Positions 897-51,804 of a stretch of 55,742 bases of DNA are shown piece by piece (position 1 is the stretch's first letter; each line of letters opens with the position of its first letter). The translations under genes and the position numbers were made by a program. The notes under the pieces are model-generated. The model was given only the letters and a program-made list of their open reading frames with translations. It searched no databases and was not told the origin of the DNA. Source of the DNA: a virus (lineage: Duplodnaviria; Caudoviricetes); the IMG/VR virus record IMGVR_UViG_3300025513_000009, positions 1 through 55,742 of that record; one strand, written 5' to 3'.

Positions 897-1397
897 TTAT
901 AAAGCAACTGCCATAGCAATTGCAAATCCATTTGTTGCAACATTTGTTACATCTATACCATTTACTGTAGTGACTTGCAAGTCAGCTAAAGCATTAATTA
1001 CATTTGTTCCATCCGAATAAATAAACGCGTCACGCCCAGAAGGTACAGTAAATGTTGTACCACTTCCAGTTGTTAAGATTAAATCATTACTATCTGCCGT
1101 ATTATTTAATACCATATACACTGTCTCTAGTGAAGGTACTGTAACCGTACAAGTGCCCCCTGGCGATCCAGCAAAGTTTAAGACAAAGTTTCTTCCATCC
1201 TCATCTGCGTAAGCCGTAGGGTCTGTAGTAAATGTTAATGTGTGTGTCGTACCTGATAGTGTAATAGAAGCATAACCTGTTATCTTGTTCTCAAGACGTT
1301 TTAAGTTATCATTAGTTTGATTACCCCAGGTGTTATCGTTTTCACCTGTGGTCATTAAACGTAAATTTAAACCACCATTACTCCAGGTAGATGTCAT
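897..1397 (-). CDS. Tail-associated structural protein
   Basis: 166 aa, Thr-rich, with a TGENDNTWG motif and a C-terminal FAIAMAVAL as seen in marine podovirus tail proteins. Confidence 0.75.
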   Translation of the reverse strand: MTSTWSNGGLNLRLMTTGENDNTWGNQTNDNLKRLENKITGYASITLSGTTHTLTFTTDPTAYADEDGRNFVLNFAGSPGGTCTVTVPSLETVYMVLNNTADSNDLILTTGSGTTFTVPSGRDAFIYSDGTNVINALADLQVTTVNGIDVTNVATNGFAIAMAVAL

Positions 1398-1849
1398 TAA
1401 CTAATCCTTATAATTGCGTTACTTGCATCTGCTGTTGGAAACTCAATAGTAAATGTACCATTAGAAACCGAGTAGTCTGCACCAAAATCTAAAACCATTA
1501 CGGCTGCGTTAGAATTATTTGTATTATAAATTATGCATCCTCTTGTAGTAAATGTAGAACTTGACCATGAAGTATTTGCGAAATCACAGATAGCTGTTGT
1601 ACCATCTAGAGTAGGAGTTACACTTGATAATGTATTTCCTCCTGTAGTGTATCCGCTGCCGTCTGCGAGTTCATCACTGTTTCCAGTAACGTCTGTATAA
1701 TTTGTGGTTGAAGCGCTATAAGTACCCGTTTGAGATGCTTGAGCTTTAATCAAAGCAATCTTAAAAGTATCCTGACCATTTGTAAAATTATGTTCAGCCT
1801 CAAGAATTTCTTGTTTAAAACTATTACATATTGCTGATGTAATTGCCAT
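1397..1849 (-). CDS. Conserved virion structural protein
   Basis: 150 aa MAITSAICNSFKQEIL...FKIAL family; its stop overlaps the next start. Confidence 0.8.
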   Translation of the reverse strand: MAITSAICNSFKQEILEAEHNFTNGQDTFKIALIKAQASQTGTYSASTTNYTDVTGNSDELADGSGYTTGGNTLSSVTPTLDGTTAICDFANTSWSSSTFTTRGCIIYNTNNSNAAVMVLDFGADYSVSNGTFTIEFPTADASNAIIRIS

Positions 1850-1852
1850 GCG

Positions 1853-2545
1853 TTATTGTCCTCTCTGCATTGTGTTTAGTTCACCATTACGAAACTCATC
1901 ATTTCGCATTCTTACTTGTTCCTCGTTAGCTAATGTTTGGATTGCTCGATTGTAATAACCTTGCCACAATTCTATTGTTTGAGGTGTTTCTTTCATGTAT
2001 CCTATAGCTTCGATCAATGTACCATATAGTATAGCGTCTGGGGCTTTGTCACCTATATAAGTATTTTGATTACTAGATGATAACCCTGGAACTCTCATAG
2101 TATATCCTATTTCAACTGTTGTTGCAAGGGCTGGAGTTGGTCCAAATAAAAAATTAGTTTGGCGATTACTACTTGTGTAAGTCGCGCCTGTTTGATTTAA
2201 AGCATAGTATCTTATCGCACCAGTGTTCGTGGTAGGATTCTTGCTATACTCTTTAATAAATGATTCGTCTTTCTCTAATAAAAAATCCCCGTTTTCAATT
2301 CTTAAATAACGAGGCACCACCATATCAGAAGGAACAGCTACTGTTGATGTGCCCCCTGTTAGAGATAGTGTTGAAAGTTTTCTAAAAGCAGTTAAATCTG
2401 CTTCTTTAGATATACGTAATTCCGCTAATTCAATACACAAATCGATAGGAGCTTGCCCGCTACCTGTTGCTGTAGTGAAAGACACGGCTGAGTTTTCTAG
2501 CCAGTCTTGTACGTTTTGTTTAAGTTGGTCGTATGTTAATCCCAT
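1853..2545 (-). CDS. Head-tail adaptor (tail tubular A-like)
   Basis: Start taken at 2545 (TAATG overlap; the track gives 2557). Motifs TYDQLK..., IELAELRI and PDAILYGTLIEA. Confidence 0.7.
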   Translation of the reverse strand: MGLTYDQLKQNVQDWLENSAVSFTTATGSGQAPIDLCIELAELRISKEADLTAFRKLSTLSLTGGTSTVAVPSDMVVPRYLRIENGDFLLEKDESFIKEYSKNPTTNTGAIRYYALNQTGATYTSSNRQTNFLFGPTPALATTVEIGYTMRVPGLSSSNQNTYIGDKAPDAILYGTLIEAIGYMKETPQTIELWQGYYNRAIQTLANEEQVRMRNDEFRNGELNTMQRGQ

Positions 2546-3392: not shown

Positions 3393-4106
3393 TTAGTATC
3401 CTCGAATCTTAGGTCGTATATAAAAACTTGCTCTTTCTCTATCTTCTTCTTTTGCGTATTGCCATTCTTGTTCATACATAGCTTTTAATTCTGCTCTACG
3501 TGCCCCATCTACTTTAGCTGGATTTTTATTAGCAAGTTCAACTGCTAATGCACTAATCAATGCAGGTAAATATCTTCTAGGTATGTCAGGATTTTCGGTA
3601 TACGTATCATTAACATCTTGGGGATATCTTATTGCCCAAGTATTTAATTGATAATAAGTTTGATTTGGAACAGGCCATAAATATATTGTATGTGTATTTG
3701 CACCAGCTGCTTTGAATTGACTGTTTCTTTCAACAGCAAATTGTACAGGCTTGCCTGATGTTGTCTTAGTGGGGAAGTTTAAATATTCTGATAAACTAAT
3801 TCTCTCGCAGTTAACATCAGAAACTGGAGAACTATTCGTATCTCTTACTGACGCATCTAGTATATCTAGAAATTGCCCAGCCGCTACAGTTGTGGTAGCG
3901 CTATCTTTAGTTAGATTAATTATATGGGAAGTAATAGTAAATAAATTTACTCCTTCGTTTACCCACTTCGTTAAAATTAAATTAAGGGAACGCCTAGCTG
4001 TTACTAGATCATAACCAGACTTAACATCAAAACCTACGCGTTCGTAGGCTTCCTGTATAATTTCAGCTGTGTCTAAATTAAATGTATGTGTACCCGATGT
4101 TGCCAT
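3393..4106 (-). CDS. Head-tail connector / tail tubular protein
   Basis: 237 aa MATSGT...GYDLVTARRSLN...W.N.G family, downstream of the capsid gene. Confidence 0.75.
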   Translation of the reverse strand: MATSGTHTFNLDTAEIIQEAYERVGFDVKSGYDLVTARRSLNLILTKWVNEGVNLFTITSHIINLTKDSATTTVAAGQFLDILDASVRDTNSSPVSDVNCERISLSEYLNFPTKTTSGKPVQFAVERNSQFKAAGANTHTIYLWPVPNQTYYQLNTWAIRYPQDVNDTYTENPDIPRRYLPALISALAVELANKNPAKVDGARRAELKAMYEQEWQYAKEEDRERASFYIRPKIRGY

Positions 4107-4732: not shown

Positions 4733-4755
4733 GGGGGCACTTTTAAAATACCCCC
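4733..4755 (-). terminator. Probable terminator after the major capsid gene
   Basis: GGGGG-TATTTTAAAAGTG-CCCCC then TTCT on the minus strand. Confidence 0.45.
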
Positions 4756-11341: not shown

Positions 11342-13755
11342 TACATTCCTTCTTTTTTAATTGTAATTTTTGCTTGCTGTATTCCTGACTTAGCTAAGTC
11401 CATTGCATCTTTAGTTTCTTTGCGCTGTCTTTCTAAATCAGTGTTCTCATCATCAATCATAAGTTTAGCTTCTTCTAATCCCATTTCATCTGAATGTATT
11501 TTAGAGTCAAGAGCTAACTTAGCTTTACGTAAATCTAAATCTGCTTGTTGAATTTCTAGTTGTTGTTCAGCTACACTTTTCTTTTCGCCTGACATAATCT
11601 TTGCTTTCTCTTCGTCTAATTTCATAATAGAGTCAGAAGCATTTGCAGCAAGTAAAGCAATTTGATTTTCCATTTCAGGTGGTAAAGGTTGTCCTGACAT
11701 AACTGCTTGTTGTAATTGAGGATCTTGAATCATTTGAACAATTGAACTTCTATATTTCATAGCTAAGTGTTCTTGAATATGTGAAGCTAATGTTTGTACC
11801 ATAGGCATGTTTTCTTTATATGCTGGGTTATTTATTAAAGAAGCATGAGCCACAATATGCGCATCATGATTTTGTTCTGGTTTAGGTTGAAGAGGTGCCC
11901 CCTTCATAGCAGCCATATTTTCTGTCACAGGGTCTGCTGATATAGGTTGTTGTTTAGCTTTTAAATATCTTTGTGGTTCTTCAATCCCCATTGCAGAAAA
12001 CAATTCCATTCCTATCGCTTCCATGTTGTAAGCATTAGGATTTTGCTGAGCTATTTGCATTACTGCATTTACCTTTGCAATTCTGTGCGCTTCAGTGGGC
12101 ATGTTAGGATCTGAAACAGGAATGACATCAATTGATTTTAAATTAAAATCTTCCCTAAAAACTTGTTGTGCACCACCTGCGACCTCGTAAGGATACATAT
12201 CAGGAAGATACTCATGATCTAGTCTCGCGAGTATTCGCAGGTCTTTGGATTGAGCGTTATGCAGACGCTTGTGCACTGCTGAGAATAGCTTAGAAGATTG
12301 CTCTAATAAAGCCATGGTTGTACCAACTGGTCCATAGTTAGAAGCTTTTTCTACTATGTTATCAGCTGAGTCAGCAAACTCTTTTGCAGCATTTACTACA
12401 TACTGCATTAAATTGTATAAGGTACCTGAGGGTTCTTTAAAAGGTAAAGGTTGCAATGACTTGCTTAAGTCACCTGCTGGACTATTTACTTCTCTCCATT
12501 CACCAGGAGCAATAGGCTCATCTGGGGCAAGCACGCGAAGTCCATGTGCTTTGAACCCGCCAGGTAAATTTGCAAACGTACCAGCATCTATCAGTTGTCT
12601 CATAGATGAAGTCGCTGTCTTTGTTAAACCTCCAATTAAATGGATGTACCCGTAACCATAAAAACCTAATCCAGGTATCATGTAATAATGAGTGAAATAC
12701 ATTTTCTTTTCTTTTTTAACATCGTCCTCATTCCAGTTTTTACGAATAGCTAATACTACTCCTTCATCTGTCATGTGGACAATGTAGGGTAATTTCAACC
12801 CATCAGGATCTTCAAAACCAGGGATGTCTAAGTTCACATGCATCTCTAAGATTTCTACACGTTCTGTTTCTCCAAAGGGTTTTGTTAATCCTAAAACTTC
12901 ATTTGATGCATCTTCTGCATTACTTTCTGATACTGTACTTTCTTGGACATCTATGTCTCTAAAAGTTTTAGCTATTTGAAATTTTTTAATTTCGTTCATA
13001 GACATAGAATATTTATGTGTAAATCTTTCTGCAGTTTCTAAGTCAGAAGCATAATAGTCTATGTAAAAATCTTGTGCTTTAATATATTCTGTTCTTGGTC
13101 TTTGTAAAGAAACATCCCAATAAGTTTTTTTAAAAGCTGAACCGTACAAAGATACATAAAATAATAATCTATCTAACTCAGGTCCGTACTCAGGCATTTG
13201 AATTTGTGTTTGGTAATTCATAAAATGTCTTACACGATTTGCTTGCTCCATTTTTTGTGGAGTCTGTGATCCAACGATGCGCGTACGTATCGGTCCTTCT
13301 GTTGGAAATAATTCTTTGTAAGCTTTAGCTTGAAATTTTACTACTGCTTGTGCAAGTACAGGGTGAGAAGCAGATGCTGCTCCTGGAAAAGGTTCATCAC
13401 TATTTTCAGATTTAAATCCTAAAAGATCTACACCTTCTTCTGCTATAGTATCGTACTCTTCTCTTGAGTTTTGATCACGTTCAAACGAATCTAATAATTC
13501 ACTACCTATTGCACGTAAATCTGAATCATCAAGAATTTCAGCTAAGTTTGCTGAATGATCTTGAACATCCATTGGTAAATCTTCGTCATCAAATAAACCC
13601 ATTGCCTTAGCTTCTTCCATGAGAGGTTTATCTTCTAATGTAACTTCGGCTGTACCATCTTCTTGAACTATAATTTCTTCTTCCGCTGGAGTTAAATCAC
13701 GTACTGATTCTATCTCTTCTCCTGTGGGGTTATTTAAAATTTCTTCTATTGCCAT
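11341..13755 (-). CDS. Portal protein
   Basis: 804 aa directly after terL; PGLGFYGYGYIHLIGGL and NYGPVGTT motifs, coiled-coil C-terminus. Confidence 0.9.
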   Translation of the reverse strand: MAIEEILNNPTGEEIESVRDLTPAEEEIIVQEDGTAEVTLEDKPLMEEAKAMGLFDDEDLPMDVQDHSANLAEILDDSDLRAIGSELLDSFERDQNSREEYDTIAEEGVDLLGFKSENSDEPFPGAASASHPVLAQAVVKFQAKAYKELFPTEGPIRTRIVGSQTPQKMEQANRVRHFMNYQTQIQMPEYGPELDRLLFYVSLYGSAFKKTYWDVSLQRPRTEYIKAQDFYIDYYASDLETAERFTHKYSMSMNEIKKFQIAKTFRDIDVQESTVSESNAEDASNEVLGLTKPFGETERVEILEMHVNLDIPGFEDPDGLKLPYIVHMTDEGVVLAIRKNWNEDDVKKEKKMYFTHYYMIPGLGFYGYGYIHLIGGLTKTATSSMRQLIDAGTFANLPGGFKAHGLRVLAPDEPIAPGEWREVNSPAGDLSKSLQPLPFKEPSGTLYNLMQYVVNAAKEFADSADNIVEKASNYGPVGTTMALLEQSSKLFSAVHKRLHNAQSKDLRILARLDHEYLPDMYPYEVAGGAQQVFREDFNLKSIDVIPVSDPNMPTEAHRIAKVNAVMQIAQQNPNAYNMEAIGMELFSAMGIEEPQRYLKAKQQPISADPVTENMAAMKGAPLQPKPEQNHDAHIVAHASLINNPAYKENMPMVQTLASHIQEHLAMKYRSSIVQMIQDPQLQQAVMSGQPLPPEMENQIALLAANASDSIMKLDEEKAKIMSGEKKSVAEQQLEIQQADLDLRKAKLALDSKIHSDEMGLEEAKLMIDDENTDLERQRKETKDAMDLAKSGIQQAKITIKKEGM

Positions 13756-15967: not shown

Positions 15968-16009
15968 GAGGGGGCTTTAAAACATCGCCCTCACTCGATG
16001 TGCCCCCTC
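15968..16009 (+). other. Nested stem-loop in the divergent intergenic region
   Basis: Outer stem GAGGGGGC/GCCCCCTC and inner stem ACATCG/CGATGT. Confidence 0.6.
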
Positions 16010-16032: not shown

Positions 16033-16236
16033 ATGTATAAACTTCACCGCATTATTACAGAAGAAAAATTAAAAAGGAATACCGAGCGCCTACTTAAAGT
16101 CCTATTCAATGCCATGAGTCATAAACAAATTATGCGGATGCTTATTGATTACTTTGTAGCAAGGAGGGGCACGCGAAATTCTAACAGGCCTGATCTGGAA
16201 CTACGCACCCTGATACGTAAAAGAAAAAAAGTCTAA
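16033..16236 (+). CDS. Small basic hypothetical protein (67 aa)
   Basis: AAGGAG RBS before the ATG at 16033; the longer track ORF overlaps terS antisense. Confidence 0.6.
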   Translation: MYKLHRIITEEKLKRNTERLLKVLFNAMSHKQIMRMLIDYFVARRGTRNSNRPDLELRTLIRKRKKV

Positions 16237-21135: not shown

Positions 21136-21180
21136 AAAAGAGGGGGCACGGCAAAACTGAATTGCAATGTCCCCTTTTTT
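21136..21180 (+). terminator. Probable intrinsic terminator of the early operon
   Basis: AAAAGAGGGGGCA...TGTCCCC followed by TTTTTT. Confidence 0.55.
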
Positions 21181-34948: not shown

Positions 34949-35587
34949 CTAGTCCTGTTCTGAGAACTCATAAAAGAAATTATTATCATCACCCGCAGTG
35001 TACTTAGACTTACTCTCAACCCCATACTCAATAGTAGATACCTTATAATCAGGGAACCTCATCTTCTTAGGTGACAAAGACTTATCATAGAATAGTACAC
35101 GATTATTAGGCTGAGCTGCGAAGTATCCATTATCTAATTGAATAATATTAAAAGACTTATGCTGTGTAGGTGCTTCAGAATACCCCACATCTGGTATGTT
35201 GTAGTCTGGATGACAACTATCTATGGTGTATAAGTACTCACCAAAATAAAAATTCCCGTTAGGAGCCTTGTATTTACATTTACCTGACCCTACACTCACC
35301 TTTTGTATAACTGATATGTGATAGCTAAAAGCGTCCCATAACTCAAGGTCTTCCAGCTTCATCTCTTCCTTAGTTTCTTTCCAAACAAACGCGGATATAG
35401 GAAGCTTATCGTATAAAGCGCCAGTCTCATAGAGGTATGTCTCAAAGTACAGAGCTCTGCCCTGTATAGACTTAACGGTTATCCATACACCTGGTTCGTA
35501 TTCACCGTGCCCCCTCTCAAAGTCATAGAGATATTCTTTCTTAACAAGGACTTCAGTAGGTGGGATGTTGGCTACAAGAAAAGCCAT
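34949..35587 (-). CDS. Conserved hypothetical phage protein
   Basis: 212 aa MAFLVANIPP...LPISAF...YLYTID...HK...AQPNNR. Confidence 0.8.
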   Translation of the reverse strand: MAFLVANIPPTEVLVKKEYLYDFERGHGEYEPGVWITVKSIQGRALYFETYLYETGALYDKLPISAFVWKETKEEMKLEDLELWDAFSYHISVIQKVSVGSGKCKYKAPNGNFYFGEYLYTIDSCHPDYNIPDVGYSEAPTQHKSFNIIQLDNGYFAAQPNNRVLFYDKSLSPKKMRFPDYKVSTIEYGVESKSKYTAGDDNNFFYEFSEQD

Positions 35588-37254: not shown

Positions 37255-37256
37255 TA

Positions 37257-42100: not shown

Positions 42101-45100
42101 TTTAAATTTTTGTTGTAAACTCCTAACCACAATGGAGTAAAGATAGGATGTTCTTTTGCCCATATCCTAGCGTGCCCCATAATTCTCTGAAAGAATCCAA
42201 ACTTGTTAGGGTTAGTAACGTTATTATCTTTATTAGTAAATGTATTTTTATCTTGATCAATGAGATTTGCAGTTCGCCTTTGCTGATCTCTAACTTCAGA
42301 TCTTTTAGGTTTAGGCCTTTGATTATCTTTGGAGTCAGTAGGGTCGTCAATAAAAGCTTGTGACTGATTAAAGTGATAGTCTATATAAGAAGGGTCATCA
42401 GGATCTAATCCCATTCGCGTGCCCCTCTTCCTATTAACAGCAATAGTCTTACTTACTTCTCTGACTAACTCTTGTGCTCTTTTCTTTTGTCGCTTACCCA
42501 AACTAATTTCTTCAAAAATTTGTTCAGGTTTTTTATAATTCGTATCAAATAAAGTATCAGATAGTGCAATAAGATATGCTTCTAGTTTTAAGAAAGCTTG
42601 CTTGACTGGTCCTTTATAAATCTTATCTCTCAATATGTGAGAGGCAAATGCGTCTGACATTGCTTCTTCAAGCTGTTGATCTTCTGTTAAGTTCGGGTAT
42701 CTTTCTTTAATGTTGTATTCTTTTATCCAATTTTCTTTGGCATATTTTTTAAACAATGTTAATTCTTTAGCAGTAAAGAAACCGTTCTCTATAAGAGCGT
42801 GCATAGCTTCATGATGTAACATAAAGAGTCTAGACTCTATGCCAGTAATTTCTCTACCAAATGTTTGTTTACCCCCAATACTATTTACAGATAAAATACT
42901 TATCCACTGAGGGTTTTGGAAAGTTAAACCCATGTTAACTAAATCTTCATGAATTAAAAAGTTACCTTTGTGACCTTCTTCTTTCATTTTATTTAACAAG
43001 AACTCACTAAGAGGTTTACCTTCCATGTTTAAACCTACAAAACTTAAACCCAATTGATCTAATCTATCTCTAAGCATTTGATAGATTCCTTTTTCATTGT
43101 TTTCAAATGCAGGAGTTAATTTAAAATCAGGGTTGTCTTTATAAAATTTACTTAAGACTTGTTTCTGTGTAACTTTTTTTGTCTTTCCTTTTACTTTAGT
43201 AGTTAGAGGTCCTCTGCCTCTATAAGAATTTACAGAGATTTTTTCTAGCTCTGAATCTGTAAAAGGTTTTAATCCGAAAGATGCTATTGTTTTTTGCCAC
43301 AAGGTTTGATTAGCTTCAGCATTGTTTAGTAAGTTGTTTAGAAAATTTAATTCAGTAGCTTTAGCTTCTTCAGATATAAACGGATTGTTTTGTGTGGCTT
43401 GTATTTGATTTCTTAAACCTCGTATAGCACTAGGGCTTGCGTCACTCTGATTGCCTTTAAAAGCAGTTCTTGATAATTCATTTAATGTAAGTAATCTGCT
43501 TTCAGGATTTTGTTCTGATACCTCAATCGCATCATCTAGAAATTTTAACTCAGTGTTAATTTCATTACGTTCTTGTTCTGTGGTTGCTCTGTTTAATTTA
43601 TTATTTAATTGATTCTTACGATTTCTTATTCGAGCATTAGCTGCTTCTTGAATTGCAGAGGCTTCTTGTGGGACAGTAACAACTACTTCACCAGTAGGTT
43701 CATTGGTCTTTATAACCTTAGCATCATTGTATATTTTATTATTTAAAATATCTTCCAGCATTTCTCTGCCATAAGATTTTTTAGTCTTGGGATTTATATT
43801 AGTATTATTTTTAATACCTGAGACTACTGCTTCTCCCATAGTAGGTTCATTAAGAATTTCAATAGTACTTTCTTGATTCTCTACAACTCTAGTAGATTTT
43901 TTAAAGTAACCCAGTTTATCTAGAGCACTAAGCTCTTCTTCTGAAACATAGTTTTCATTTTCACGAGAGTCTTTAGCGAACTCTACAATTTGGTAGTCAT
44001 CATATCTATCAATCTCGCTTTGAGGATAACCTCGTTCTTTTAATATTTTTTTAGATTTATTTAATGTTTTTTTATTTACAGGTAAAGATTTATTGTAAGG
44101 GATAAAATCTTGTTTAGCTACAGAGATATCATCAGGATTAATTTCACCTGTTTTAGAATCAATACTTTGTGCTTTAGTTGAGTCTATAGGTGCCTTAAGT
44201 TCATTCAATACAGATAGATCTGAGATAGGTTGTAATATGTTTTGTTCACCTGATCCTTCTTGATCACGTACAAGAACTGCAAACTTCTTTCCATTTTTTT
44301 CTACAACCCCTTTTACCTTATAAGTGGGTGTAATAATTTCCCTATTTTCATCTCTTTTCTGATTACCATCTTCGTCTTTAATATCATATACACCAGAAAC
44401 TGTATAGGTTTTACCTTTGTATTCTTGTACTTCAGGAGCGTCTTCAATAAGTTCATCATTACTAACATAGACACCACTCTCACCTATTTCTAAACTATCT
44501 ATTTTTCTTTTTCTTTTACCTATATTAACACTTTTAACTACACCACCTGCAATACCAAAAGGCCCTGAACCTGCTGCACCAGAAGCCGCAGCCTCTCCTG
44601 TAGCTTTCCAAAATTCTTTACTAGTATACAAGTCAGCCAACTCTGCTTTAACACTTTCACCAGGCTGTAATCCTTTTTCAATACGTCCTGCAGACTCAGT
44701 AAGAATATTCTGAGAACCCTCAGCTAAAGCCTCACCAGCTTGCGTCTTCAATAATTCTCTACCTATAATGCCTTTAGTTGTTTGCTTTAAAGTTTTATCT
44801 ACTGTTGCCTTGACAGCATCTTTTCCAAATTTTTTATATAAAGTTTGTTGCAGCATAGCACCTGCACCAAACAATCTTTCGGAAGCTGCATAAAATACAC
44901 CTGTTGCTAAAGATAGTCCAGCATTAGCTCCTTCAAAATCTCTTGCCTCTAGTTGAGCTATTCGAGAATCTCCGATACCCATACCATACATAGCACCAAT
45001 ACCTAGTGTAGGGTTGATTACACTAGCTGCAAAAATTGGGATAATAGTAGCAGCACCACTGCCTACGTTAAAACCAATCCAATCAATAAACTCACTTAGT

Positions 45101-45690
45101 TTATCTTCAGAGTTCATAATCTCTTCAATAGACGTAGTAAAAGCTTCTGCTTTACCTGTCTCTTCATTCATAGTATATTGACTAGCCGCACCTTCCAATT
45201 GATACTGTTGAATGGCTTTGTTAGTAGCTTCCTCTAATTCTTCCATGGCTAATAAATCAGCTATAGTTCCGAGTGCCCCTGCTCCTATTTGTTTAAGACC
45301 AGACCAACCACCCTTGAGGCCTTTCATAATAGAGGTATCGTTTAAATCATCAGCAGCGTTATATCTTTCTGCAGACAACCCATACTTGTATAAGAAACCT
45401 TGGTCGTATAATTGTTTTTCTACTTGTTCAGATTTTAATATCTCTGCAATCTGTTCGTTAGTTGCATCAGCCCTGACCTTTATGAAGGGGGCACTTGGGT
45501 CGTCAGATATCTTTACTCTTTTAGTGGGTATTGATTTAGGATCGGGAGAAGGAACTAAATTGTTCCCTAGTTGTGATTGACTTGAAGATTGGAATAACTC
45601 AGGATATTGCGAGATAACTTCTTGAGCACGGGTGTTGGCAGCCGCTGTGGGATCATAAGGTGTAGGTGTATACTTTACGTCTTCTGCCAT
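39127..45690 (-). CDS. Large internal virion/ejection protein
   Basis: 2187 aa, last of the ejection-protein cluster; hydrophobic Gly/Ala segments and an internal HHEAMH...EE motif. Confidence 0.8.
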   Translation of the reverse strand: MAEDVKYTPTPYDPTAAANTRAQEVISQYPELFQSSSQSQLGNNLVPSPDPKSIPTKRVKISDDPSAPFIKVRADATNEQIAEILKSEQVEKQLYDQGFLYKYGLSAERYNAADDLNDTSIMKGLKGGWSGLKQIGAGALGTIADLLAMEELEEATNKAIQQYQLEGAASQYTMNEETGKAEAFTTSIEEIMNSEDKLSEFIDWIGFNVGSGAATIIPIFAASVINPTLGIGAMYGMGIGDSRIAQLEARDFEGANAGLSLATGVFYAASERLFGAGAMLQQTLYKKFGKDAVKATVDKTLKQTTKGIIGRELLKTQAGEALAEGSQNILTESAGRIEKGLQPGESVKAELADLYTSKEFWKATGEAAASGAAGSGPFGIAGGVVKSVNIGKRKRKIDSLEIGESGVYVSNDELIEDAPEVQEYKGKTYTVSGVYDIKDEDGNQKRDENREIITPTYKVKGVVEKNGKKFAVLVRDQEGSGEQNILQPISDLSVLNELKAPIDSTKAQSIDSKTGEINPDDISVAKQDFIPYNKSLPVNKKTLNKSKKILKERGYPQSEIDRYDDYQIVEFAKDSRENENYVSEEELSALDKLGYFKKSTRVVENQESTIEILNEPTMGEAVVSGIKNNTNINPKTKKSYGREMLEDILNNKIYNDAKVIKTNEPTGEVVVTVPQEASAIQEAANARIRNRKNQLNNKLNRATTEQERNEINTELKFLDDAIEVSEQNPESRLLTLNELSRTAFKGNQSDASPSAIRGLRNQIQATQNNPFISEEAKATELNFLNNLLNNAEANQTLWQKTIASFGLKPFTDSELEKISVNSYRGRGPLTTKVKGKTKKVTQKQVLSKFYKDNPDFKLTPAFENNEKGIYQMLRDRLDQLGLSFVGLNMEGKPLSEFLLNKMKEEGHKGNFLIHEDLVNMGLTFQNPQWISILSVNSIGGKQTFGREITGIESRLFMLHHEAMHALIENGFFTAKELTLFKKYAKENWIKEYNIKERYPNLTEDQQLEEAMSDAFASHILRDKIYKGPVKQAFLKLEAYLIALSDTLFDTNYKKPEQIFEEISLGKRQKKRAQELVREVSKTIAVNRKRGTRMGLDPDDPSYIDYHFNQSQAFIDDPTDSKDNQRPKPKRSEVRDQQRRTANLIDQDKNTFTNKDNNVTNPNKFGFFQRIMGHARIWAKEHPIFTPLWLGVYNKNLKTKELQSQYVDKLSEIFTTVIQNPEYKILLEKAFEISQQVAGRYRKDSDGRIIFRAERDGDGAGSTVKAGDVVVLEGDIATAYEDVQLAIQLQHKEIIKGMLAGGNSLPLLNDVLDLMAEFVPQPDAKIFINGTKSINEMTKEDYENLTSGDIDAMVDILQGIQNLSLSTDIQNINGLPLTEDRRKELSSRISTMLGRLDETKDEQFKVGSGLLALNFELKKYDEFLKTDYIPLQRYGDKFITVKNKTTGEVVDYRMFNKGKYIDKFMNEEKEVRQDLNEKYGDSNEFIISDTKEVSLNRLKQNRIADLASIDSAAQSMSDVNVNAYLEIRKELNTILNKGSSAGQPVVGFSSFIAPRKKQGGVPGFSTDFVRGISQYGQASSTFAAGNRFNKSISDAFIKSQQDDVIDSEGNSVDPMLQKSIKKWYDYVSDPKQEYAAIRRMGFWYFLGGNVSSALLQLMSIVQFVGPTISTLSGNKQSAVVELSKAFKEVMAMMQFNGRKYQDVFLDFSKLPDDIKEDAKLDIMNGIIKQGMALHETGMPTGAGIRSGRDKNREKFRTVENTIIGGMFNTMETVARLSAYIATYRMMKDPKSIQNATDHYSSDRDFIANVNANNGVVTPRIVAQQMIEENFGVYGKEQRPELMRGIGSVFLLFQTYISQMFSLMGRLLTRSGSPAQRAIGRKILAKQMVMILSTGGLFGLPFGDDLAWLMEMMLKTFPGLDIDIRNETKKMLSASIGPRATELFTDGVFNAALGIDVQRRLSFGNIPGSQQIRAALGLAGFNTGTTPDAVFGAPGAILFQNARKAFRDYDQTGEFPWAAVMHTALPTFLTNAVKGGQMGLTGKAESGYGTTISSDINALEGLAKVLGFNPTKLSKEREVLFLERKNSGRNSIRQKRFNNRVKNTFRELLVGIQEDNRDAQFDAQNELNKIMLEIFDYNSKQKPKNLLTVDTYRLLQEAFSDINKEVRYAKSGYFNFVDTLADREARGLQ

Positions 45691-47547: not shown

Positions 47548-49355
47548 TAAGCAGTCTCACTTTCTTTTATTCTTTTAAACATATCTCCAAAACTCTCTAA
47601 CATATTTATTCTCTTAGGATCAGAAGTGTATGCTCTGGAAATAAGATCTTCAAATGTCATAGGCGCTTGAAACTGTCTTTGATATCCGAAGTAAGGATAC
47701 TCATCATCTTCCGTTGTAGCATCATCTTCTTCTGTTGTACTGCCTGTATTAGAAACTACTGAAGATTGATTGGCATTATCTCTTGGGTTCATTATTCTGT
47801 TAACTGCTCCAGACATTTGAGGAGTCATAGCAGGCCGCCCTATTATATTTTGATTTACAAAACCATCTGTACCTTTGCCACCATTTGGACCTAAGTTATA
47901 ACCTATTCCTCCAGTTGCTGGATCGAAGAAGCTTGCATTTAATCCACCCATAAATTCACCACCTTCTCTTGCTGAAGTAGGTTTTGTTTTTTTATTAACT
48001 ACAAACTTATCAGGAAGGTTATATGATTTATTTGGATTTACATTTATAGGACTAGTGCTACCATCTTGTCTCATAGCATCTTCTATTAAATCGTTTAGGT
48101 ATTGAGCCTCATCAGCATTAGCTCCACTGTAATAATCTTCTTTAGTTCTGTCACCTCTTGCTATTTTCATTATGTCATCTTCATAATCTGATTCAATAGC
48201 AACTTCCTCACCTGATTTATAAGGCGTTGACTTGCCGTACATAGCGTTAGCTTGGGCTGGCCCCATTCCCATTCCAGTACCGTTTAATATATCTTGAACT
48301 TGTTTTTGAAAATCTGTTTCTCTTTTAGTTGGAGCTTCTTCTTCTACTTCTCCACCCTTACCCAGTGCTTTCATAAGAAAACCTAAAGGACTGACAGTTG
48401 GAAAGTTTTTTATATCTGAAGATAATCTTCTGCGGACATCCCCTCCCACTTCACCTGGAGTAGGTTGCGCTATTGTAAGTGAGCCTGTGACAGGATCATA
48501 TGATAACCCACGCCCATAATCCTCTATGAAACCCAGCCCCTTGGTTAATTGATCTTGAGTAATCACACCTTGAGCTTCTAACATAGCAGCATCTTTGCCG
48601 CTTAATCTTATGTTACGTAATCTGTTTTGGTCTACATCACGCATAATGTTTCCTGCTATATCACCCATACTAAAACCACTCTTGGCAAACCCACCACTCT
48701 TAGCAAATTTAAGTTGCTTAACCATCTGCATTTTTTTGTAGTTAGATAAGTTAGGATCGTTTTCTACTTCTTTAATTTTTGAATTAACATTAGACGCAAT
48801 ATCTCTTACTTCTTGATTGCCCCCAAGTATTTTTTGGAAAATGTTTTGTTCTTCTACAGGAGGTGTAGTGTTTTTGCTTTTCTTATTACTCTCTGCTTCA
48901 CTTTTATCATAAGCCGCTTTCCGAGCCTTCATTGAGTTAGCTGCTTTCTGTGATTCAGATGCTTTTGATTTTGAGAATTTTCCAGTACCGCCTTTTCTAC
49001 CTCTAGCAAAAGAAGGAATACCTTGTGGTGTCATATCACCTGAGCCGCCCAGCAGTTTTAATATGCCTGCCTCTTGCTCGTTGATGTAAGCTAACTGCTC
49101 GCCCTCTGGCGCCATAGCATTTAAAGTTTGCGTCTGTCCTTGAATTTCGTTTTGTACATTCATGAGTGATTGATTGTAAAAGTCTGGGTTGGCCTGCTGT
49201 GTGTCAGGCAATTGAAAGATTCCCTGTGCCCCCTTCATGTTTTGTTTACGTAATAGTGCAGCAATACCAGGAGAAGCCTGGTCATTTTTTACTACCATAT
49301 CGCCAGGGTTTACTGGCCCAGCATAGTTATTCGGTTGAGTAGATCCATATGCCAT
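47547..49355 (-). CDS. Internal virion protein
   Basis: 602 aa; APEGEQLAYIN..EAGILKLLGGSG...GIPSF motif, then low-complexity sequence. Confidence 0.7.
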   Translation of the reverse strand: MAYGSTQPNNYAGPVNPGDMVVKNDQASPGIAALLRKQNMKGAQGIFQLPDTQQANPDFYNQSLMNVQNEIQGQTQTLNAMAPEGEQLAYINEQEAGILKLLGGSGDMTPQGIPSFARGRKGGTGKFSKSKASESQKAANSMKARKAAYDKSEAESNKKSKNTTPPVEEQNIFQKILGGNQEVRDIASNVNSKIKEVENDPNLSNYKKMQMVKQLKFAKSGGFAKSGFSMGDIAGNIMRDVDQNRLRNIRLSGKDAAMLEAQGVITQDQLTKGLGFIEDYGRGLSYDPVTGSLTIAQPTPGEVGGDVRRRLSSDIKNFPTVSPLGFLMKALGKGGEVEEEAPTKRETDFQKQVQDILNGTGMGMGPAQANAMYGKSTPYKSGEEVAIESDYEDDIMKIARGDRTKEDYYSGANADEAQYLNDLIEDAMRQDGSTSPINVNPNKSYNLPDKFVVNKKTKPTSAREGGEFMGGLNASFFDPATGGIGYNLGPNGGKGTDGFVNQNIIGRPAMTPQMSGAVNRIMNPRDNANQSSVVSNTGSTTEEDDATTEDDEYPYFGYQRQFQAPMTFEDLISRAYTSDPKRINMLESFGDMFKRIKESETA

Positions 49356-49390: not shown

Positions 49391-49405
49391 GGGGGCACGC
49401 CATTT

Positions 49406-49744
49406 TTATATAGGGTTATTAGTGTCACTTCTTACTTCCATGTAGCTCATAGCTCCTTGAATATCATTCGCCGAGCCTGCTTGTAATTTTAATATATCTG
49501 CAGCTTCTAGTACAATCACACCATCTAATAAGTTTTGAGATGAGTTACTGGATAACGAGTGATGTGCAATTTCATACGTATTAGCTCCTCTTGTTATAAA
49601 CAATTGAGTCACTACATTACCTGTTCCATGATTGTGGCTTTGTATAGTTTTAACAATAGTTTCTGTTTCAGATGGGCAAGTATATATTGTAGTAAGAGCT
49701 GTAGTTGTTAAGTCAAACAGTTCTGATTTATATAAAGTGGACAT
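49406..49744 (-). CDS. Small tail-associated protein
   Basis: Start at the TAATG overlap; TTIYTCP...VLEAADILK, similar to 558-887. Confidence 0.7.
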   Translation of the reverse strand: MSTLYKSELFDLTTTALTTIYTCPSETETIVKTIQSHNHGTGNVVTQLFITRGANTYEIAHHSLSSNSSQNLLDGVIVLEAADILKLQAGSANDIQGAMSYMEVRSDTNNPI

Positions 49745-49941
49745 TAACTGTGGTCCCCCATAAACCATGAGAAAGCCCTGGTCTCTGTTTGATCTGCAAT
49801 TTTTACTGGAGGATTTTCTTCCGAGTAATCTCTTAGTTTTAAAACCTGAATCAAAGCATCGTAGGTACGAACCTCAATCTTTCCTTCCGCTCTTTCTCTG
49901 TAGGAAGGTTCTGGATATACTGGTCTGCTATATAATGACAT
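49744..49941 (-). CDS. Small hypothetical protein
   Basis: 65 aa, coupled on both sides. Confidence 0.65.
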   Translation of the reverse strand: MSLYSRPVYPEPSYRERAEGKIEVRTYDALIQVLKLRDYSEENPPVKIADQTETRAFSWFMGDHS

Positions 49942-51791
49942 TATCTTAACCCGTCCTGTCTACCATCTGCACGCCATGTCCCTAGTCTCCATGAAACTCC
50001 AGTAGCATCAGACTCATATCTAGCTTGGAATGATCTACCCCTTGCACGGAAATCTAACTCTGGATCAGTGGAGCCTATAGTAAACGGCCCTTTGTTTATC
50101 TGTGCCCCTTGTGGATATATCTTTATATTCAAAGTAAACTTCATAGAAGTACCACTTTTAAATGTAACATCAGGAATAACTCTGTATATGAAATATACGT
50201 TGTCACCATTCTGATCTCCATTAAAGAAACCTGTTTCTACAAAAGAAGTGATAGCACTACCCGCTGCATCAGTTCCATCTTCTTGATTGTATTGAATGCC
50301 TGTGGAATCAATAGCTAAAGGATTAGAATAGATATTGGAATCAACCCACGCTGTTCTACCTAAGTTACCAATAGACCAAGTCTTATCTATGTAATTATAA
50401 ATGGCATACTTATCCACATCCGTAGATCCTTCTGATGGATAAAACCACCACAGCTCATTGAACTTAATGTTCTGTCCACAAAAAACTTTTTCCCTTTGTA
50501 CTTGATTAAAGTCATTAAACACATGAGTTAGTACAGGGCATTCTAAAGTTCTAACCGCACCATCAAACATATAGAAGTTGTCTACGCCCATCCAAAACGA
50601 AGCACCTTCAATTGTAGTTGCCGCATTCTTGGATATGGTACCAGATATTTCTCCCAACACTGAGAATGAAAATGTAAAAGGAGGGCCGATAAACTGCATA
50701 GAATAGACGTCTGCATCTGTCCATAAGAATATTTGACCACGCCCTTTCTCTACTGCTTCAATATTATTTCCCGTACCTAGTCTTTGTTCACCTGCTGTAT
50801 TAATAAGTTGAGGTGTCCATGTTATGAAATCTTCTTGATCAGAGAATCGTACAGTCATTCTGTCATAGACAGATGAACCTACAGGAGTAGAACCAAAACA
50901 GATTAAGTGTCTGTCTGGTGTAGATACCATGACTTGTCCTACTTTAGTAGGGACTTGTGATGCATCTCCGCTTAAAGTATTAACAATATAATAAGATAGT
51001 GTAGTGCCTCTGAAAGTTGTAGGCGCTGCTAAGAATGCACTGATATCAAAATAATATATAGTATCTTCGCCGCCTCCTACAGATGCTACGATGTCTTCAC
51101 CCCACGTATCCATTGACCAAACTCGTGGTGATAAAACAACACCTGATGAACTTCTAGCTGTACCCCAAGAGGACTGTCCCCAAAGACCACCACCAAAACC
51201 ATAGCCTGTTAAACCATCAGTCGGTCCGTTGTTAACAAGATAACGTAAGTCTACTGAACCTCCTCCAGTTACGCTGCCTGATGTGGCTGTACCTGAACCT
51301 GTTATAGTGTAAGAGTTAGCGTCTATATAAGTAGCTACGTACTCTCCCGCTGCAATAGTAACACCATCAAGTGTCACTGCTGTATCAATAACTACGCGAG
51401 AGCCTGGATCAGTATTGGCTAAACCATGTGCTGTATCTGTTACTGTCACAACACTAGTACCTGCTGCGCCTGTAGTATATGGATTTGTTAAGCTGATTGT
51501 ATCTGTTCTATATGGAGTAATGTCATAAACACTGCCACCATACTCTACAAAAACATGGGTAGAAGTACCCATTAAAATAAACTTAGCTCCGTTTAAATCT
51601 CTATGAGGAAGAATGTTTCGACACACACCACTGATTTGCGCTGAGCTAAACCGCTTAGTCCAGCCCCCTATCTTCTCGGCATACCCCTGAAAGAAACGAG
51701 CCTTGTCCGCATTTGTATAACGCATCTGTGCTTGGTAGTCTGTGACGTCTGTGATAACTCCTGGCGGAGCTGTTAATTGTATTAATGGCAT
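49941..51791 (-). CDS. Tail nozzle / tail tubular B-like protein
   Basis: 616 aa, beta-propeller-like: EKIGGW, RFSDQED, AGEQRL, ELWWFYP and a C-terminal DGLR. Confidence 0.8.
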   Translation of the reverse strand: MPLIQLTAPPGVITDVTDYQAQMRYTNADKARFFQGYAEKIGGWTKRFSSAQISGVCRNILPHRDLNGAKFILMGTSTHVFVEYGGSVYDITPYRTDTISLTNPYTTGAAGTSVVTVTDTAHGLANTDPGSRVVIDTAVTLDGVTIAAGEYVATYIDANSYTITGSGTATSGSVTGGGSVDLRYLVNNGPTDGLTGYGFGGGLWGQSSWGTARSSSGVVLSPRVWSMDTWGEDIVASVGGGEDTIYYFDISAFLAAPTTFRGTTLSYYIVNTLSGDASQVPTKVGQVMVSTPDRHLICFGSTPVGSSVYDRMTVRFSDQEDFITWTPQLINTAGEQRLGTGNNIEAVEKGRGQIFLWTDADVYSMQFIGPPFTFSFSVLGEISGTISKNAATTIEGASFWMGVDNFYMFDGAVRTLECPVLTHVFNDFNQVQREKVFCGQNIKFNELWWFYPSEGSTDVDKYAIYNYIDKTWSIGNLGRTAWVDSNIYSNPLAIDSTGIQYNQEDGTDAAGSAITSFVETGFFNGDQNGDNVYFIYRVIPDVTFKSGTSMKFTLNIKIYPQGAQINKGPFTIGSTDPELDFRARGRSFQARYESDATGVSWRLGTWRADGRQDGLR

Positions 51792-51804
51792 TTTTCCGTG
51801 CCCC

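What the first reader, a model, noticed from the sequence alone, without database searches (positions are those of the whole stretch)
1153..51804. Unexplained genome-wide GC-rich word GGGGCAC/GTGCCCC (~25 copies)
Seen by manual count (some may be missed): GTGCCCC at 1153, 2349, 3500, 11895, 16000, 24717, 29015, 35507, 38033, 42172, 42419, 45273, 49226, 50102 and 51798; GGGGCAC at 4734, 16166, 21143, 26134, 29965, 33826, 34414, 38228, 45488 and 49392. Fifteen extend to the 8-mer GGGGGCAC. Only about 1-2 are expected if GC is 35-40% (rough estimate). Copies occur in both orientations, inside genes on either strand, and at six intergenic spots (terminator stems, the 5' end of the sRNA candidate, next to a -35). 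Four inverted pairs lie about 165-215 bp apart (16000/16166, 38033/38228, 45273/45488, 49226/49392), and the first four copies are about 1.2 kb apart. It does not match the Chi or KOPS sequences I know. Inference: a selected DNA-level signal, such as a host-specific Chi-like protection site, a priming or helicase-loading site, or a binding site for a DNA-organising or anti-defence protein.
Basis: partly seen in the sequence, partly recalled or inferred. Interest (0 to 1): 0.8.

Follow-up and report, generated by a model that had tools for sequence, protein, structure and literature searches.

The report
Conserved GGGGCAC word in marine phage
A 7-8-base G-rich DNA word occurs about ten times more often than chance in this uncultured marine and salt-lake phage and its relatives and is kept by selection, most likely as a signal for DNA-end processing or recombination, though its reader is unknown.

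Summary
GGGGCAC/GTGCCCC occurs 25 times against 1.9 expected and is the most enriched 7-mer. The window is a whole 55.7-kb podovirus record.

- Codon-preserving shuffles give 2.85 or 1.21 genic copies against 20 observed.
- In relatives about 74% identical in DNA, 13 of 17 and 10 of 17 aligned sites are intact, against 16-17% of ordinary 7-mers.

The sites lie in all three frames, antisense, and at about 5-fold higher density between genes. Both orientations are enriched. The whole phage family carries a GGGGCA core whose flanking bases differ by clade. In two related genomes the sites are evenly spaced in each orientation.

The word is therefore a selected DNA-level signal. Its function is not shown.

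My best guess (about 0.35) is a Chi-like site that tames a helicase-nuclease and promotes recombination from either direction. Known Chi-rich phages have the same density, but differ in orientation and in lacking recombination genes.

The rivals are nick sites, protein-binding sites and priming sites. The host is unknown, and only assembled contigs were available, so nicks could not be tested.

The parts
1153..1159 (-). GGGGCAC copy, sense, in gene 897-1397
   Evidence: intact in G002, changed in G004, not aligned in G001 and G003
2349..2355 (-). copy, sense, in gene 1853-2557
   Evidence: changed in G002 and G004
3500..3506 (-). copy, sense, in gene 3393-4106
   Evidence: changed in G002 and G004
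4734..4740 (+). intergenic copy downstream of the capsid-like gene 4774-5682, opposite to the flanking genes; its G-run can pair with a CCCCC run 13 nt away
   Evidence: intact in G001 and G002, GGGGCAA in G004
11895..11901 (-). copy, sense, in the portal gene 11341-13755
   Evidence: intact in G002 and G003; lost by synonymous change in G001, also lost in G004
16000..16006 (-). intergenic copy between terS (15415-15900, -) and a small + gene (16034-16236); left member of a -/+ pair
   Evidence: intact in G001
16166..16172 (+). copy, sense, in the small ORF 16034-16236; right member of the pair (gap 166 bp)
   Evidence: not aligned in relatives
21143..21149 (+). intergenic copy after gene 20371-21117
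   Evidence: not aligned
24717..24723 (-). copy, antisense, in the PD-(D/E)XK exonuclease gene 24668-25627
   Evidence: changed in G001 and G002
26134..26140 (+). copy, sense, in the Sak4-like gene 25894-26697
   Evidence: intact in G001, GGGGCAA in G002 and G003, lost in G004
29015..29021 (-). copy, antisense, in the DNA polymerase gene 28777-30321
   Evidence: intact in G001, G002 and G004 amid diverged flanks
29965..29971 (+). copy, sense, in the DNA polymerase gene
   Evidence: changed in all 4 relatives
33826..33832 (+). copy, sense, in nrdB-like gene 33408-34367
   Evidence: intact in G001, G002 and G004
34414..34420 (+). intergenic copy about 16 nt after a TTGACA-17-TATACT promoter-like site (34370-34398)
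   Evidence: intact in G001 and G002
35507..35513 (-). copy, sense, in gene 34949-35587
   Evidence: intact in G001 and G002, lost in G004
38033..38039 (-). copy, antisense, in the HTH-metallophosphoesterase gene 37886-39109 (+); left member of a -/+ pair
   Evidence: intact in G001 and G002
38228..38234 (+). copy, sense, in the same gene; right member of the pair (gap 195 bp)
   Evidence: intact in G001, G003 and G004; synonymous loss (GGT GCG) in G002
42172..42178 (-). copy, sense, in the 2187-aa gene 39127-45690
   Evidence: not aligned
42419..42425 (-). copy, sense, in the 2187-aa gene
   Evidence: not aligned
45273..45279 (-). copy, sense, in the 2187-aa gene; left member of a -/+ pair
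   Evidence: intact in G001 and G002
45488..45494 (+). copy, antisense, in the 2187-aa gene; right member of the pair (gap 215 bp)
   Evidence: not aligned
49226..49232 (-). copy, sense, in gene 47547-49355; left member of a -/+ pair
   Evidence: intact in G001
49392..49398 (+). intergenic copy abutting the -35 of a minus-strand promoter-like site (49390-49362); right member of the pair (gap 166 bp)
   Evidence: intact in G001 amid diverged flanks
50102..50108 (-). copy, sense, in gene 49941-51791
   Evidence: changed in G001, G002 and G003
51798..51804 (-). intergenic copy 7-13 nt upstream of the ATG of gene 49941-51791
   Evidence: intact in G001 and G002 with indels on both sides

Best explanation
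SHOWN: (A/G)GGGGCAC is a DNA-level signal kept by selection across a family of uncultured marine and salt-lake podoviruses. It does not depend on reading frame or on the encoded protein. It is enriched in both orientations and is densest where coding does not constrain it. It is conserved at orthologous places and is also gained anew in diverged lineages, so that about one site per 2 kb is maintained. INFERRED (about 0.35): it works like a Chi site. A helicase-nuclease enters a double-strand end of phage DNA, either the host's RecBCD/AddAB type or possibly the phage's own RecB-family nuclease. It degrades until it reads the G-rich word on the 3'-ended strand, then switches to making a recombinogenic 3' tail. 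If the ends of the packaged DNA are variable, which is itself an inference from the terminase type, ends can arise anywhere. Sites facing both ways would then be needed all along the genome. That would explain the interleaved, evenly spaced two-orientation pattern in G001 and G002. Sites arranged as -/+ pairs would leave complementary 3' tails that the phage's Sak4-like annealing protein could join.
For: Enrichment: 25 observed against 1.9 expected; top 7-mer. It survives synonymous-codon and codon-order shuffles: 20 genic copies against 2.85 +/- 1.75 and 1.21 +/- 1.15. The motif uses GGG, the rarest Gly codon at 10%. Conservation: 13/17 and 10/17 aligned sites are intact in G001 and G002, against 0.16-0.17 for all 7-mers and 0.20-0.22 for 7-mers containing GGGG (P = 3.5e-6 and 4e-4). 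The word is an island of identity within diverged intergenic flanks. Family-wide: G001 29, G002 29, G003 21 and G004 12 copies, against 0-1 of the reversed control word; 220 against 22.9 expected over 80 loci. Turnover: G003 shares only 1-2 of 5 aligned sites with the others yet has 21 copies. Both orientations are enriched, 7.5x sense and 4.8x antisense. Even spacing: the coefficient of variation (CV) of the gaps between sites is 0.60 and 0.59 in G001 and G002, against 0.95 for random placement; each orientation alone gives CV 0.45-0.60, P 0.003-0.03. Of 11 close pairs, 9 are -/+. Likeness to Chi: a G-rich asymmetric 7-8-mer. Its density of 1 per 2.2 kb matches the Chi-rich phage LLS, with 23 Chi at 1 per 1.86 kb (PMC12315714, passages read). 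The flanking base differs between clades, as Chi variants differ between related bacteria (bioRxiv 10.1101/2020.08.13.249359, part 1 read).
Against: No host genome could be examined, so the defining property of Chi, the same word enriched and polarised in the host and read by its enzyme, is untested. Known Chi-rich phages have nearly one orientation (20:3 and 32:0) and lack recombination modules. This phage has 10 '+' and 15 '-' copies. It also encodes a Sak4-like protein, a PD-(D/E)XK exonuclease and an Mre11-like nuclease, with two sites inside that recombination module. The orientation bias relative to genes (0.77) is not significantly above the 0.68 expected from codon usage (p = 0.08). 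Even spacing is significant only in G001 and G002, which share 17 of 23 aligned sites and so count as about one lineage. In W the gap CV is 0.86, not significant. Permuted ends are inferred, not shown: IMG/VR finds no end repeats, and the contig does not close on itself.
Confidence: 0.35

Rival explanations
1. Binding sites on duplex DNA for a phage or host protein. This could be a genome organiser or packaging protein, or a dispersed operator or roadblock like the stoperators of Cluster A mycobacteriophages (the stoperator comparison is recalled, not from a call).
For: Both orientations are enriched to a similar degree. Density is about 5-fold higher between genes: 6 of 25 sites in the 5.2% of the window that is non-coding. 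Two sites sit beside promoter-like hexamers, at 34414 and 49392. Sites are conserved in position, with clade-specific variants. A family-specific gene with a Fis-type HTH exists (37886-39109), and its recognition helix differs in G004, the genome with the relaxed motif.
Against: 19 of 25 sites lie inside genes at no fixed distance from starts. No repressor or integrase was seen among the proteins scanned; about 38 of 75 were scanned. A phage with a 43%-identical HTH-nuclease (MW202713) has no comparably enriched word, its maximum 7-mer z being 7.1. The HTH covariation rests on one genome.
Confidence: 0.2
2. Recognition sites of a phage nickase: localised single-strand interruptions in virion DNA, as in T5, the phiKMV-like phages and tf/LUZ24-like phages.
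For: In tf, 14 copies of a 9-mer mark nicks. The positions are similar in related phages, and the main consensus differs by one base between relatives (PMC3517423, passages read). The same pattern of positional conservation and clade variants is seen here. One virion protein of this phage (49941-51791) has its tblastn matches mostly in Pseudomonas phages, some of them named Bruynoghevirus (100 of 127 matching records are Pseudomonas phages; that LUZ24 belongs to Bruynoghevirus is recalled, not from a call). A candidate nuclease with an HTH is present.
Against: In every described case all sites are on one strand. Here the strands carry 10 and 15 copies in W, 16 and 13 in G001, and 14 and 15 in G002. 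There is no physical evidence: only assembled contigs were available, which cannot show ends. Metallophosphoesterase nucleases of this family occur in many phages for which these calls showed no nicks.
Confidence: 0.15
3. Priming sites: a primase reads 5'-GGGGCA(C)-3' on the template, with one or two cryptic 3' bases, and makes pppGCCCC. This would resemble SP6 primase at 5'-GCA-3' or T7 primase at 5'-GGGTC-3'.
For: The invariant core ends in GCA, the SP6 primase triplet. T7, SP6 and plant Twinkle primases use a cryptic 3' base or bases (PMC5737085, passages read; the T7 pentamer is recalled). The average spacing of about 2 kb is near Okazaki-fragment size (recalled). Most genic sites are on the sense strand, which would be the lagging-strand template if replication runs with transcription.
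Against: No primase domain (DnaG/TOPRIM, zinc-binding or archaeo-eukaryotic) was found. The protein that PHROGs labels 'DNA primase' is a DUF3987 ATPase whose Walker A motif starts near residue 61. The strand bias does not exceed composition. In G001 both orientations run along the whole genome. Known primase sites are 3-5 nt, not 7-8.
Confidence: 0.08
4. An RNA- or translation-level signal, such as a Shine-Dalgarno-like purine/G-run or an RNA-protein or RNase site, or simply a by-product of protein sequence or composition.
For: The upstream flank is purine-rich. One site lies 7-13 nt before a start codon. 15 of 19 genic sites in W are sense. Windows around sites fold slightly better than GC-rich controls, -17.8 against -15.6 kcal/mol.
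Against: Antisense copies are 4.8x enriched, and some are conserved, for example 29015 in 3 of 4 relatives. All three frames are used. The enrichment survives protein- and codon-preserving shuffles. The phage's real ribosome-binding sites are AGGAG/GGAGG-like, and the CAC part is not complementary to an anti-SD (the anti-SD sequence is recalled). There is no Rfam hit. None of the 41 terminator-like hairpins overlaps a site.
Confidence: 0.04

Closest known systems
Chi-rich phages (E. coli lambdoid phage LLS, Pseudomonas phage MD8, phage P1) and Chi / Chi-like sites of bacteria
   Same: A short G-rich asymmetric word, far above chance, at about one per 2 kb (LLS: 23 sites, one per 1.86 kb). It is kept in coding DNA at the cost of codon choice. 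Variants differ by a base between related lineages.
   Different: In LLS and MD8 the sites face one way (20:3 and 32:0), cluster toward one end, and the phages lack recombination genes. Here the sites face both ways and are spread out, evenly so in G001 and G002, and the phage has a Sak4-type recombination module. The word matches no published Chi listed. The host and its enzyme are unknown.
Localised single-strand interruptions (nick sites) of T5, phiKMV-like and tf/LUZ24-like phages
   Same: A dispersed, over-represented consensus that is conserved in position among relatives and changes by one base between relatives.
   Different: Known nick sites number 4-14, are 9-19 nt long, and are all on one strand. 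Here there are 25-29 sites of 7-8 nt on both strands. Nicks have not been shown.
Primase recognition sites (SP6 5'-GCA-3', T7 5'-GTC-3')
   Same: The core ends in GCA preceded by a G-run, analogous to T7's preferred GGGTC. There is variation at what would be the cryptic 3' base.
   Different: The word is much longer than any known primase site. No primase gene was found. No strong lagging-strand polarity is seen.
Stoperators of Cluster A mycobacteriophages (recalled, not from a call)
   Same: About 25-30 asymmetric sites spread over the whole genome, partly co-oriented with transcription, conserved in place, with variants specific to subgroups.
   Different: Those sites are 13 bp, mostly intergenic, and serve an immunity repressor of temperate phages. 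Here the sites are mostly inside genes, and no repressor or integrase was seen.

Membership tests
Chi / Chi-like hotspot (including Chi-rich phages) | Short asymmetric G-rich word strongly over-represented in the genome | tested here: met
   25 against 1.9 expected; top 7-mer; also in 4 relatives
Chi / Chi-like hotspot (including Chi-rich phages) | Same word over-represented and strand-polarised in the host chromosome | not testable with these tools
   Host unknown. The genome-contig scan found only 29-32% TerL matches in Bacillota, Actinomycetota and Myxococcales.
Chi / Chi-like hotspot (including Chi-rich phages) | Recognised by RecBCD/AddAB with attenuation of degradation | not testable with these tools
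   Needs biochemistry or genetics.
Chi / Chi-like hotspot (including Chi-rich phages) | Sites predominantly in the one active orientation (20:3 in LLS, 32:0 in MD8) | tested here: not met
   10 '+' and 15 '-' copies. Sense fraction over 5 genomes is 0.77 against 0.68 expected, p = 0.08. In G001 both orientations span the genome.
Chi / Chi-like hotspot (including Chi-rich phages) | Phage lacks its own recombination module (rule for Chi-rich lambdoid phages) | tested here: not met
   Sak4-like protein (phrog_124, PF13479), PD-(D/E)XK exonuclease (PF12705) and metallophosphoesterase exonuclease (phrog_284) are present.
Phage nick sites (localised single-strand interruptions) | Dispersed consensus, positions conserved among relatives, consensus varying slightly between relatives | tested here: met
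   compare
Phage nick sites (localised single-strand interruptions) | All sites on one DNA strand | tested here: not met
   Both strands carry sites in all 5 genomes.
Phage nick sites (localised single-strand interruptions) | Physical, ligatable nick at the site in virion DNA | not testable with these tools
   All 24 runs are held as assembled contigs. No begin/end table could be produced.
Primase recognition site | A primase (DnaG/T7-type with zinc-binding domain, or AEP) encoded by the phage or shown to act | tested here: not met
   Only a DUF3987 ATPase was found, with no primase domain in Pfam, NCBIfam or PDB sequence searches. Not all 75 proteins were scanned.
Primase recognition site | Polarity: sites on the lagging-strand template | tested here: inconclusive
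   The origin is unknown. The bias follows gene direction no more than composition predicts.
FtsK/SpoIIIE orienting sequences (KOPS/SRS) | Very strong polarity toward a terminus (the >85% figure is recalled) | tested here: not met
   Orientation changes between neighbours are as frequent as or more frequent than random.
Stoperator-type dispersed operators | Cognate repressor and temperate life style | tested here: not met
   No integrase or repressor family appeared among the proteins scanned. The scan was incomplete.

The most novel reading that the evidence does not exclude
The word is a phage-autonomous mark, read by a phage-encoded factor rather than by the host. The family-specific HTH-Mre11-like nuclease, or the RecB-type nuclease acting with the helicase, would nick or load at about 25-30 sites on both strands. 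This would create dispersed start points for recombination-dependent replication and for end-joining of permuted genomes. Such a two-strand, evenly spaced system has not been described for any phage.
Probability: 0.15. Interest if true: 0.85.

Novelty: new variant of a known kind. Interest (0 to 1): 0.62.

Why it matters
Short words kept by selection across a viral genome mark an interaction with a DNA-processing machine.

If this word is the host's Chi-like signal, it would give the first such sequence for the (probably marine) host group. Chi-like motifs are named in that preprint for only five bacterial species. The word would also become a sequence tag for assigning uncultured phages to hosts.

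It would extend the recently recognised class of Chi-rich phages in two ways: to a phage that has its own recombination genes, and to a two-orientation, evenly spaced layout.

If the word instead marks nicks or binding by a phage protein, it would be a new form of those systems, acting on both strands. Either way, the 25 sites make the question directly testable on virion DNA or with purified enzymes.

Tried and rejected
Host identification.
- The single genome-contig scan with TerL gave only 29-32% matches in unrelated phyla.
- The Atlas look-up of the holin gave only viral clusters.
- No tRNA was found.
The host-genome test of the Chi reading could therefore not be done.

Cultured relatives.
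- The nearest (Pelagibacter phages HTVC023P and HTVC027P, DSL-LC04, CRP-901, 023Pt_psg01; TerL 31-39%) share only structural genes. None shows the enrichment.
- CRP-901's 20 GGGGCA against 0 of the reversed control looked promising. However, GGGGCA is not among its enriched words; the control is depressed because it contains CG.
- Caulobacter phage Kuura, with the closest polymerase (40%), and MW202713, with the closest HTH-nuclease (43%), also lack the enrichment.

Search for unrelated phages with the same word.
- L144 is a tandem protein repeat.
- G006 and G007 have 10 and 8 copies against 4 and 3 control copies.
- L217 looked enriched, but its 73 relatives are not. I found no evidence that the word extends beyond the family.

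Sequencing runs.
- All 24 runs are contigs.
- Laying 4 of them on 33001-53000 gave no table of molecule ends. Only 40 of about 1,970 differences were printed, none of them in a motif. This is no evidence either way.

Other readings rejected.
- Sigma-54 promoters: GGCAC(G) resembles the -24 box (recalled), but no -12 TTGC follows.
- Terminator stems: no overlap with 41 terminator-like hairpins.
- Rfam: no hit.
- A wider binding site: no information beyond aaaG-GGGGCA-C.
- Literature word searches for the 6-, 7- and 8-mers in PMC and bioRxiv gave nothing on phages or bacteria.
- Earlier-scan notes with the word concern tandem heptamer arrays in other bacteria.

They may hold per-phage Chi orientations and nick logos that bear on the comparisons.

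Full report
WHAT THE WINDOW IS

The window is the whole of one virus record (55,742 bases, one contig). It is a podovirus-like phage. Its identified genes are:
- large terminase, portal and tail proteins;
- a small terminase of family Terminase_2 at 15415-15900;
- a split family-A DNA polymerase with UDG-like and exonuclease domains;
- a PD-(D/E)XK exonuclease, a Sak4-like AAA_24 protein and a DUF3987 ATPase;
- class I ribonucleotide reductase, a lysozyme and a GTA-type holin.

It has no tRNA and no Rfam match. The closest cultured phages share only about 31-39% TerL identity (Pelagibacter phages HTVC023P and HTVC027P, DSL-LC04, CRP-901). Near-identical DNA is held by salt-lake and marine metagenome runs. 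The host is unknown.

THE OBSERVATION

- Shuffles that keep dinucleotides expect 1.91 (largest 7; 0 of 100 reach 25).
- GGGGCAC is the most enriched 7-mer under order-1 to order-3 Markov models, and GGGGGCAC (15 copies) is the most enriched 8-mer.
- GGGCAC occurs 26 times, 25 of them inside the 7-mer. Single-base variants are at background, 0-7 copies.
- Other enriched words such as GGTGGTG and GGTGCTGG are different in kind. They cluster at 52.1-52.7 kb in the glycine-rich repeats of one tail-fibre gene.

IS IT A BY-PRODUCT OF CODING?

No.
- With proteins and each gene's codon usage held fixed, 500 synonymous shuffles give 2.85 +/- 1.75 genic copies (largest 11) against 20 observed. Permuting codons within genes gives 1.21 +/- 1.15.
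- Sense copies use all three frames (8/5/2 in W; all frames in the four relatives too), and antisense copies exist.
- The word needs GGG or GGC glycine codons, which make up 10% and 14% of glycine codons here.
- With a revised gene list, 15 copies are sense, 4 are antisense and 6 lie in the 2,892 non-coding bases (5.2% of the window). Density is about 2.1 per kb between genes against 0.36 per kb within them.

RELATIVES

A terminase search of IMG/VR found 235 relatives, of which 80 loci were kept. Over those 80 loci the word occurs 220 times against 22.9 expected. These counts are not independent, because the loci are homologous.

Four large records were read whole. Their copy numbers, against 0-1 copies of the reversed control word, are:
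- G001: 29 copies in 51.9 kb
- G002: 29 copies in 60.6 kb
- G003: 21 copies in 57.5 kb
- G004: 12 copies in 50.6 kb

The common core is GGGGCA.
- G001 and G002 use GGGGGCAC (27 and 24 copies).
- W uses (A/G)GGGGCAC.
- G003 uses GGGGCA followed by C or A.
- G004 uses GGGGGCA followed by any base.
- In the 28 loci with few GGGGCAC copies, GGGGCA is still enriched and is followed by A 73, C 30, G 54, T 57 of 214.

A logo from 161 non-redundant GGGGCA sites shows information only at aaa-G-GGGGCA-C, with a weak A five bases downstream.

CONSERVATION

Window sites were mapped onto the relatives by blastn. G001 and G002 are about 74% identical over 54-60% of the window. G003 and G004 are about 69% identical over 27-31%.

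| Relative | Motif intact / aligned sites | All 7-mers identical | GGGG-containing 7-mers identical |
|---|---|---|---|
| G001 | 13/17 | 0.158 | 0.225 |
| G002 | 10/17 | 0.172 | 0.197 |
| G003 | 2/6 | 0.101 | 0.143 |
| G004 | 3/11 | 0.106 | 0.100 |

The binomial P against the GGGG-containing background is 3.5e-6, 4.3e-4, 0.21 and 0.09 respectively. That background is itself inflated by windows that overlap the motif.

In intergenic alignments the word stands out as an island of identity among substitutions and indels (34414, 49392, 51798). Some losses are synonymous (GGT GCG at 38228 in G002, GGT GCC at 11895 in G001). This shows that the protein did not need the word.

Seven sites are not conserved in any aligned relative (2349, 3500, 24717, 29965, 50102) or only partly (11895, 26134). 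G003 shares only 1-2 of 5 aligned sites with any other genome yet keeps 21 copies. There is therefore turnover with maintained density as well as site-level constraint.

ORIENTATION AND SPACING

Over the five genomes, genic copies are 73 sense and 22 antisense, with 21 intergenic. Synonymous shuffles expect 9.7 sense and 4.6 antisense. The enrichments are thus 7.5-fold and 4.8-fold. The sense fraction of 0.77 does not differ significantly from the expected 0.68 (p = 0.08; the counts are not independent).

Much of that bias is explained by composition.

In G001 and G002 the sites are spaced more evenly than chance. The measure is the coefficient of variation (CV) of the gaps between neighbouring sites.
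- All sites: CV 0.60 and 0.59 against 0.95 for random placement (about 0.2% of simulations as low); largest gap about 4 kb.
- Each orientation alone: CV 0.45-0.60, P 0.003-0.034.
- In G001 neighbours alternate in orientation more often than random: 20 changes against 14.3, P 0.021.

These two genomes share 17 of 23 aligned sites, so this is roughly one lineage's evidence. W (CV 0.86), G003 and G004 are not significant.

Of 11 neighbour pairs closer than 260 bp in the five genomes, 9 have GTGCCCC on the left and GGGGCAC on the right. Several of these pairs are orthologous.

WHAT IT IS NOT

- It is not a repeat element, since the flanks are unrelated.
- It is not a terminator stem: 0 of 41 terminator-like hairpins overlap a site.
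- It is not a ribosome-binding site. The real sites are AGGAG/GGAGG-like, and only one copy lies before a start codon.
- It is not a sigma-54 promoter, since no -12 element follows (the consensus is recalled).
- It is not general to the wider structural supergroup or to phages sharing single modules. HTVC027P, HTVC023P, 023Pt_psg01, DSL-LC04, CRP-901, Kuura and MW202713 lack it. Five of them were scanned de novo, and their strongest simple 7-mers reach z of only about 6-10, against 19-25 here.
- A scan of IMG/VR for pairs of the 8-mer found no convincing unrelated carrier.

CANDIDATE READERS

Genes present in all five motif-bearing genomes and absent from the structural outgroups are:
- the small terminase;
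- the amidoligase, amidotransferase and cyclotransferase set;
- three small unknown genes;
- the exonuclease, the Sak4-like gene, a gene I take to be an SSB (inferred; it matched no family), the polymerase and the DUF3987 block;
- the 2187-aa protein;
- a 407-aa protein on the opposite strand (37886-39109).

That last protein has a Fis-type HTH (PF02954, E = 2.9e-6). It also has a metallophosphoesterase exonuclease domain (phrog_284, E = 4.9e-44). The DxH, GD, GNH and GHxH motifs visible are my reading of the sequence.

Its recognition helix is GIPRTTLL in W and G001-G003 but GLPRPTLN in G004, the genome with the relaxed motif. This is one data point. A 43%-identical homologue sits in a phage with no enriched word.

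No primase domain was found. About half of the 75 genes were scanned.

MECHANISM

The data show a selected DNA word that is useful in either orientation, wanted about every 2 kb, and tolerated in genes at a cost in codon choice.

The best-fitting known logic is Chi.
- Chi is a G-rich 5-8-mer, read on single-stranded DNA by a helicase-nuclease that has entered a double-strand end.
- Chi-rich phages are now documented. LLS has 23 Chi, one per 1.86 kb; MD8 has 32 (PMC12315714, passages read).
- Those phages have fixed ends, nearly one orientation, and no recombination genes.
- This phage probably packages by the headful (an inference from the terminase type only), so ends could arise anywhere and both orientations would be needed. 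A -/+ pair would leave complementary 3' tails suited to annealing by the Sak4-like protein.

This fits the two-orientation, interleaved, evenly spaced layout, but it is inference. Three points count against it: the phage has its own recombination module, the host is unknown, and the word matches no published Chi. I put this reading at about 0.35.

The rivals are:
- duplex binding sites, 0.20;
- nick sites, 0.15. These match on positional conservation and clade variants but fail the one-strand rule (PMC3517423);
- priming sites, 0.08. The core ends in the SP6 triplet GCA (PMC5737085), but no primase was found;
- RNA-level signals or by-products, 0.04.

The remainder is for functions I have not thought of.

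VERDICT

It is best filed as a new variant of a known kind (dispersed selected phage words such as Chi or nick sites), with membership in either family unproven. It would interest a specialist and is directly testable.

Noticed in passing
window 1-127 and 55031-55157: The first 127 bases of the window recur exactly inside the right-edge tail-fibre-like gene; identity ends at base 128. The contig ends do not overlap end to end. The record is therefore probably cut at a repeat shared by two fibre genes, not closed as a circle.
   Followed up: partly
window 52100-52720: GGTGGTG, GGTGCTGG and related words, the next most enriched k-mers and superficially like E. coli Chi, are concentrated in the glycine-rich repeats of the tail-fibre gene 52025-53914. 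They are a protein-repeat effect.
   Followed up: yes
window 37886-39109 (+): A 407-aa gene on the opposite strand within the late block joins a Fis-type HTH to a metallophosphoesterase (Mre11/SbcD-like) exonuclease domain. It is 61-84% identical in all four relatives. A 43% homologue in MW202713 also lies next to the lysis and injection genes.
   Followed up: partly
window 30314-31579 (+): The protein that PHROGs labels 'DNA primase' is a DUF3987 P-loop ATPase with no detectable primase domain. No primase was found elsewhere among the proteins scanned, so how lagging strands are primed is open.
   Followed up: partly
window 15900-16240: A naive ORF call (15733-16236, +) is spurious in its 5' half. 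The region holds terS (15415-15900, -), a 133-bp divergent gap containing an inverted GGGGGC...GCCCCC repeat, and a small + ORF (16034-16236) with an AAGGAG ribosome site.
   Followed up: partly
loci L240-L313 (for example L258, L262): A second marine podovirus family (TerL about 37% identical to the window's) lacks the GGGGCA word but has its own strongly enriched palindrome. TAGTACTA occurs 80 times against 4.3 expected over 74 homologous loci. AGTACTA occurs 11 against 0.3 expected in L258 and 10 against 0.4 in L262.
   Followed up: no
locus L098 (Caulobacter phage Kuura): The phage with the closest polymerase module has a moderately enriched G-rich 7-mer, GAGGGAC, 33 against 6.7 expected.
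   Followed up: no
locus L144, 45-560: An unrelated IMG/VR contig carries nine GGGGGCAC copies inside a tandem repeat with alternating gaps of about 48 and 90 bp (a protein-coding repeat by my reading). It was a false lead in the search for other carriers.
   Followed up: yes
window 17982-23510: The amidoligase, class-II amidotransferase and gamma-glutamyl cyclotransferase genes are conserved in all five family genomes and absent from the structural outgroups. Their role is unknown.
   Followed up: no
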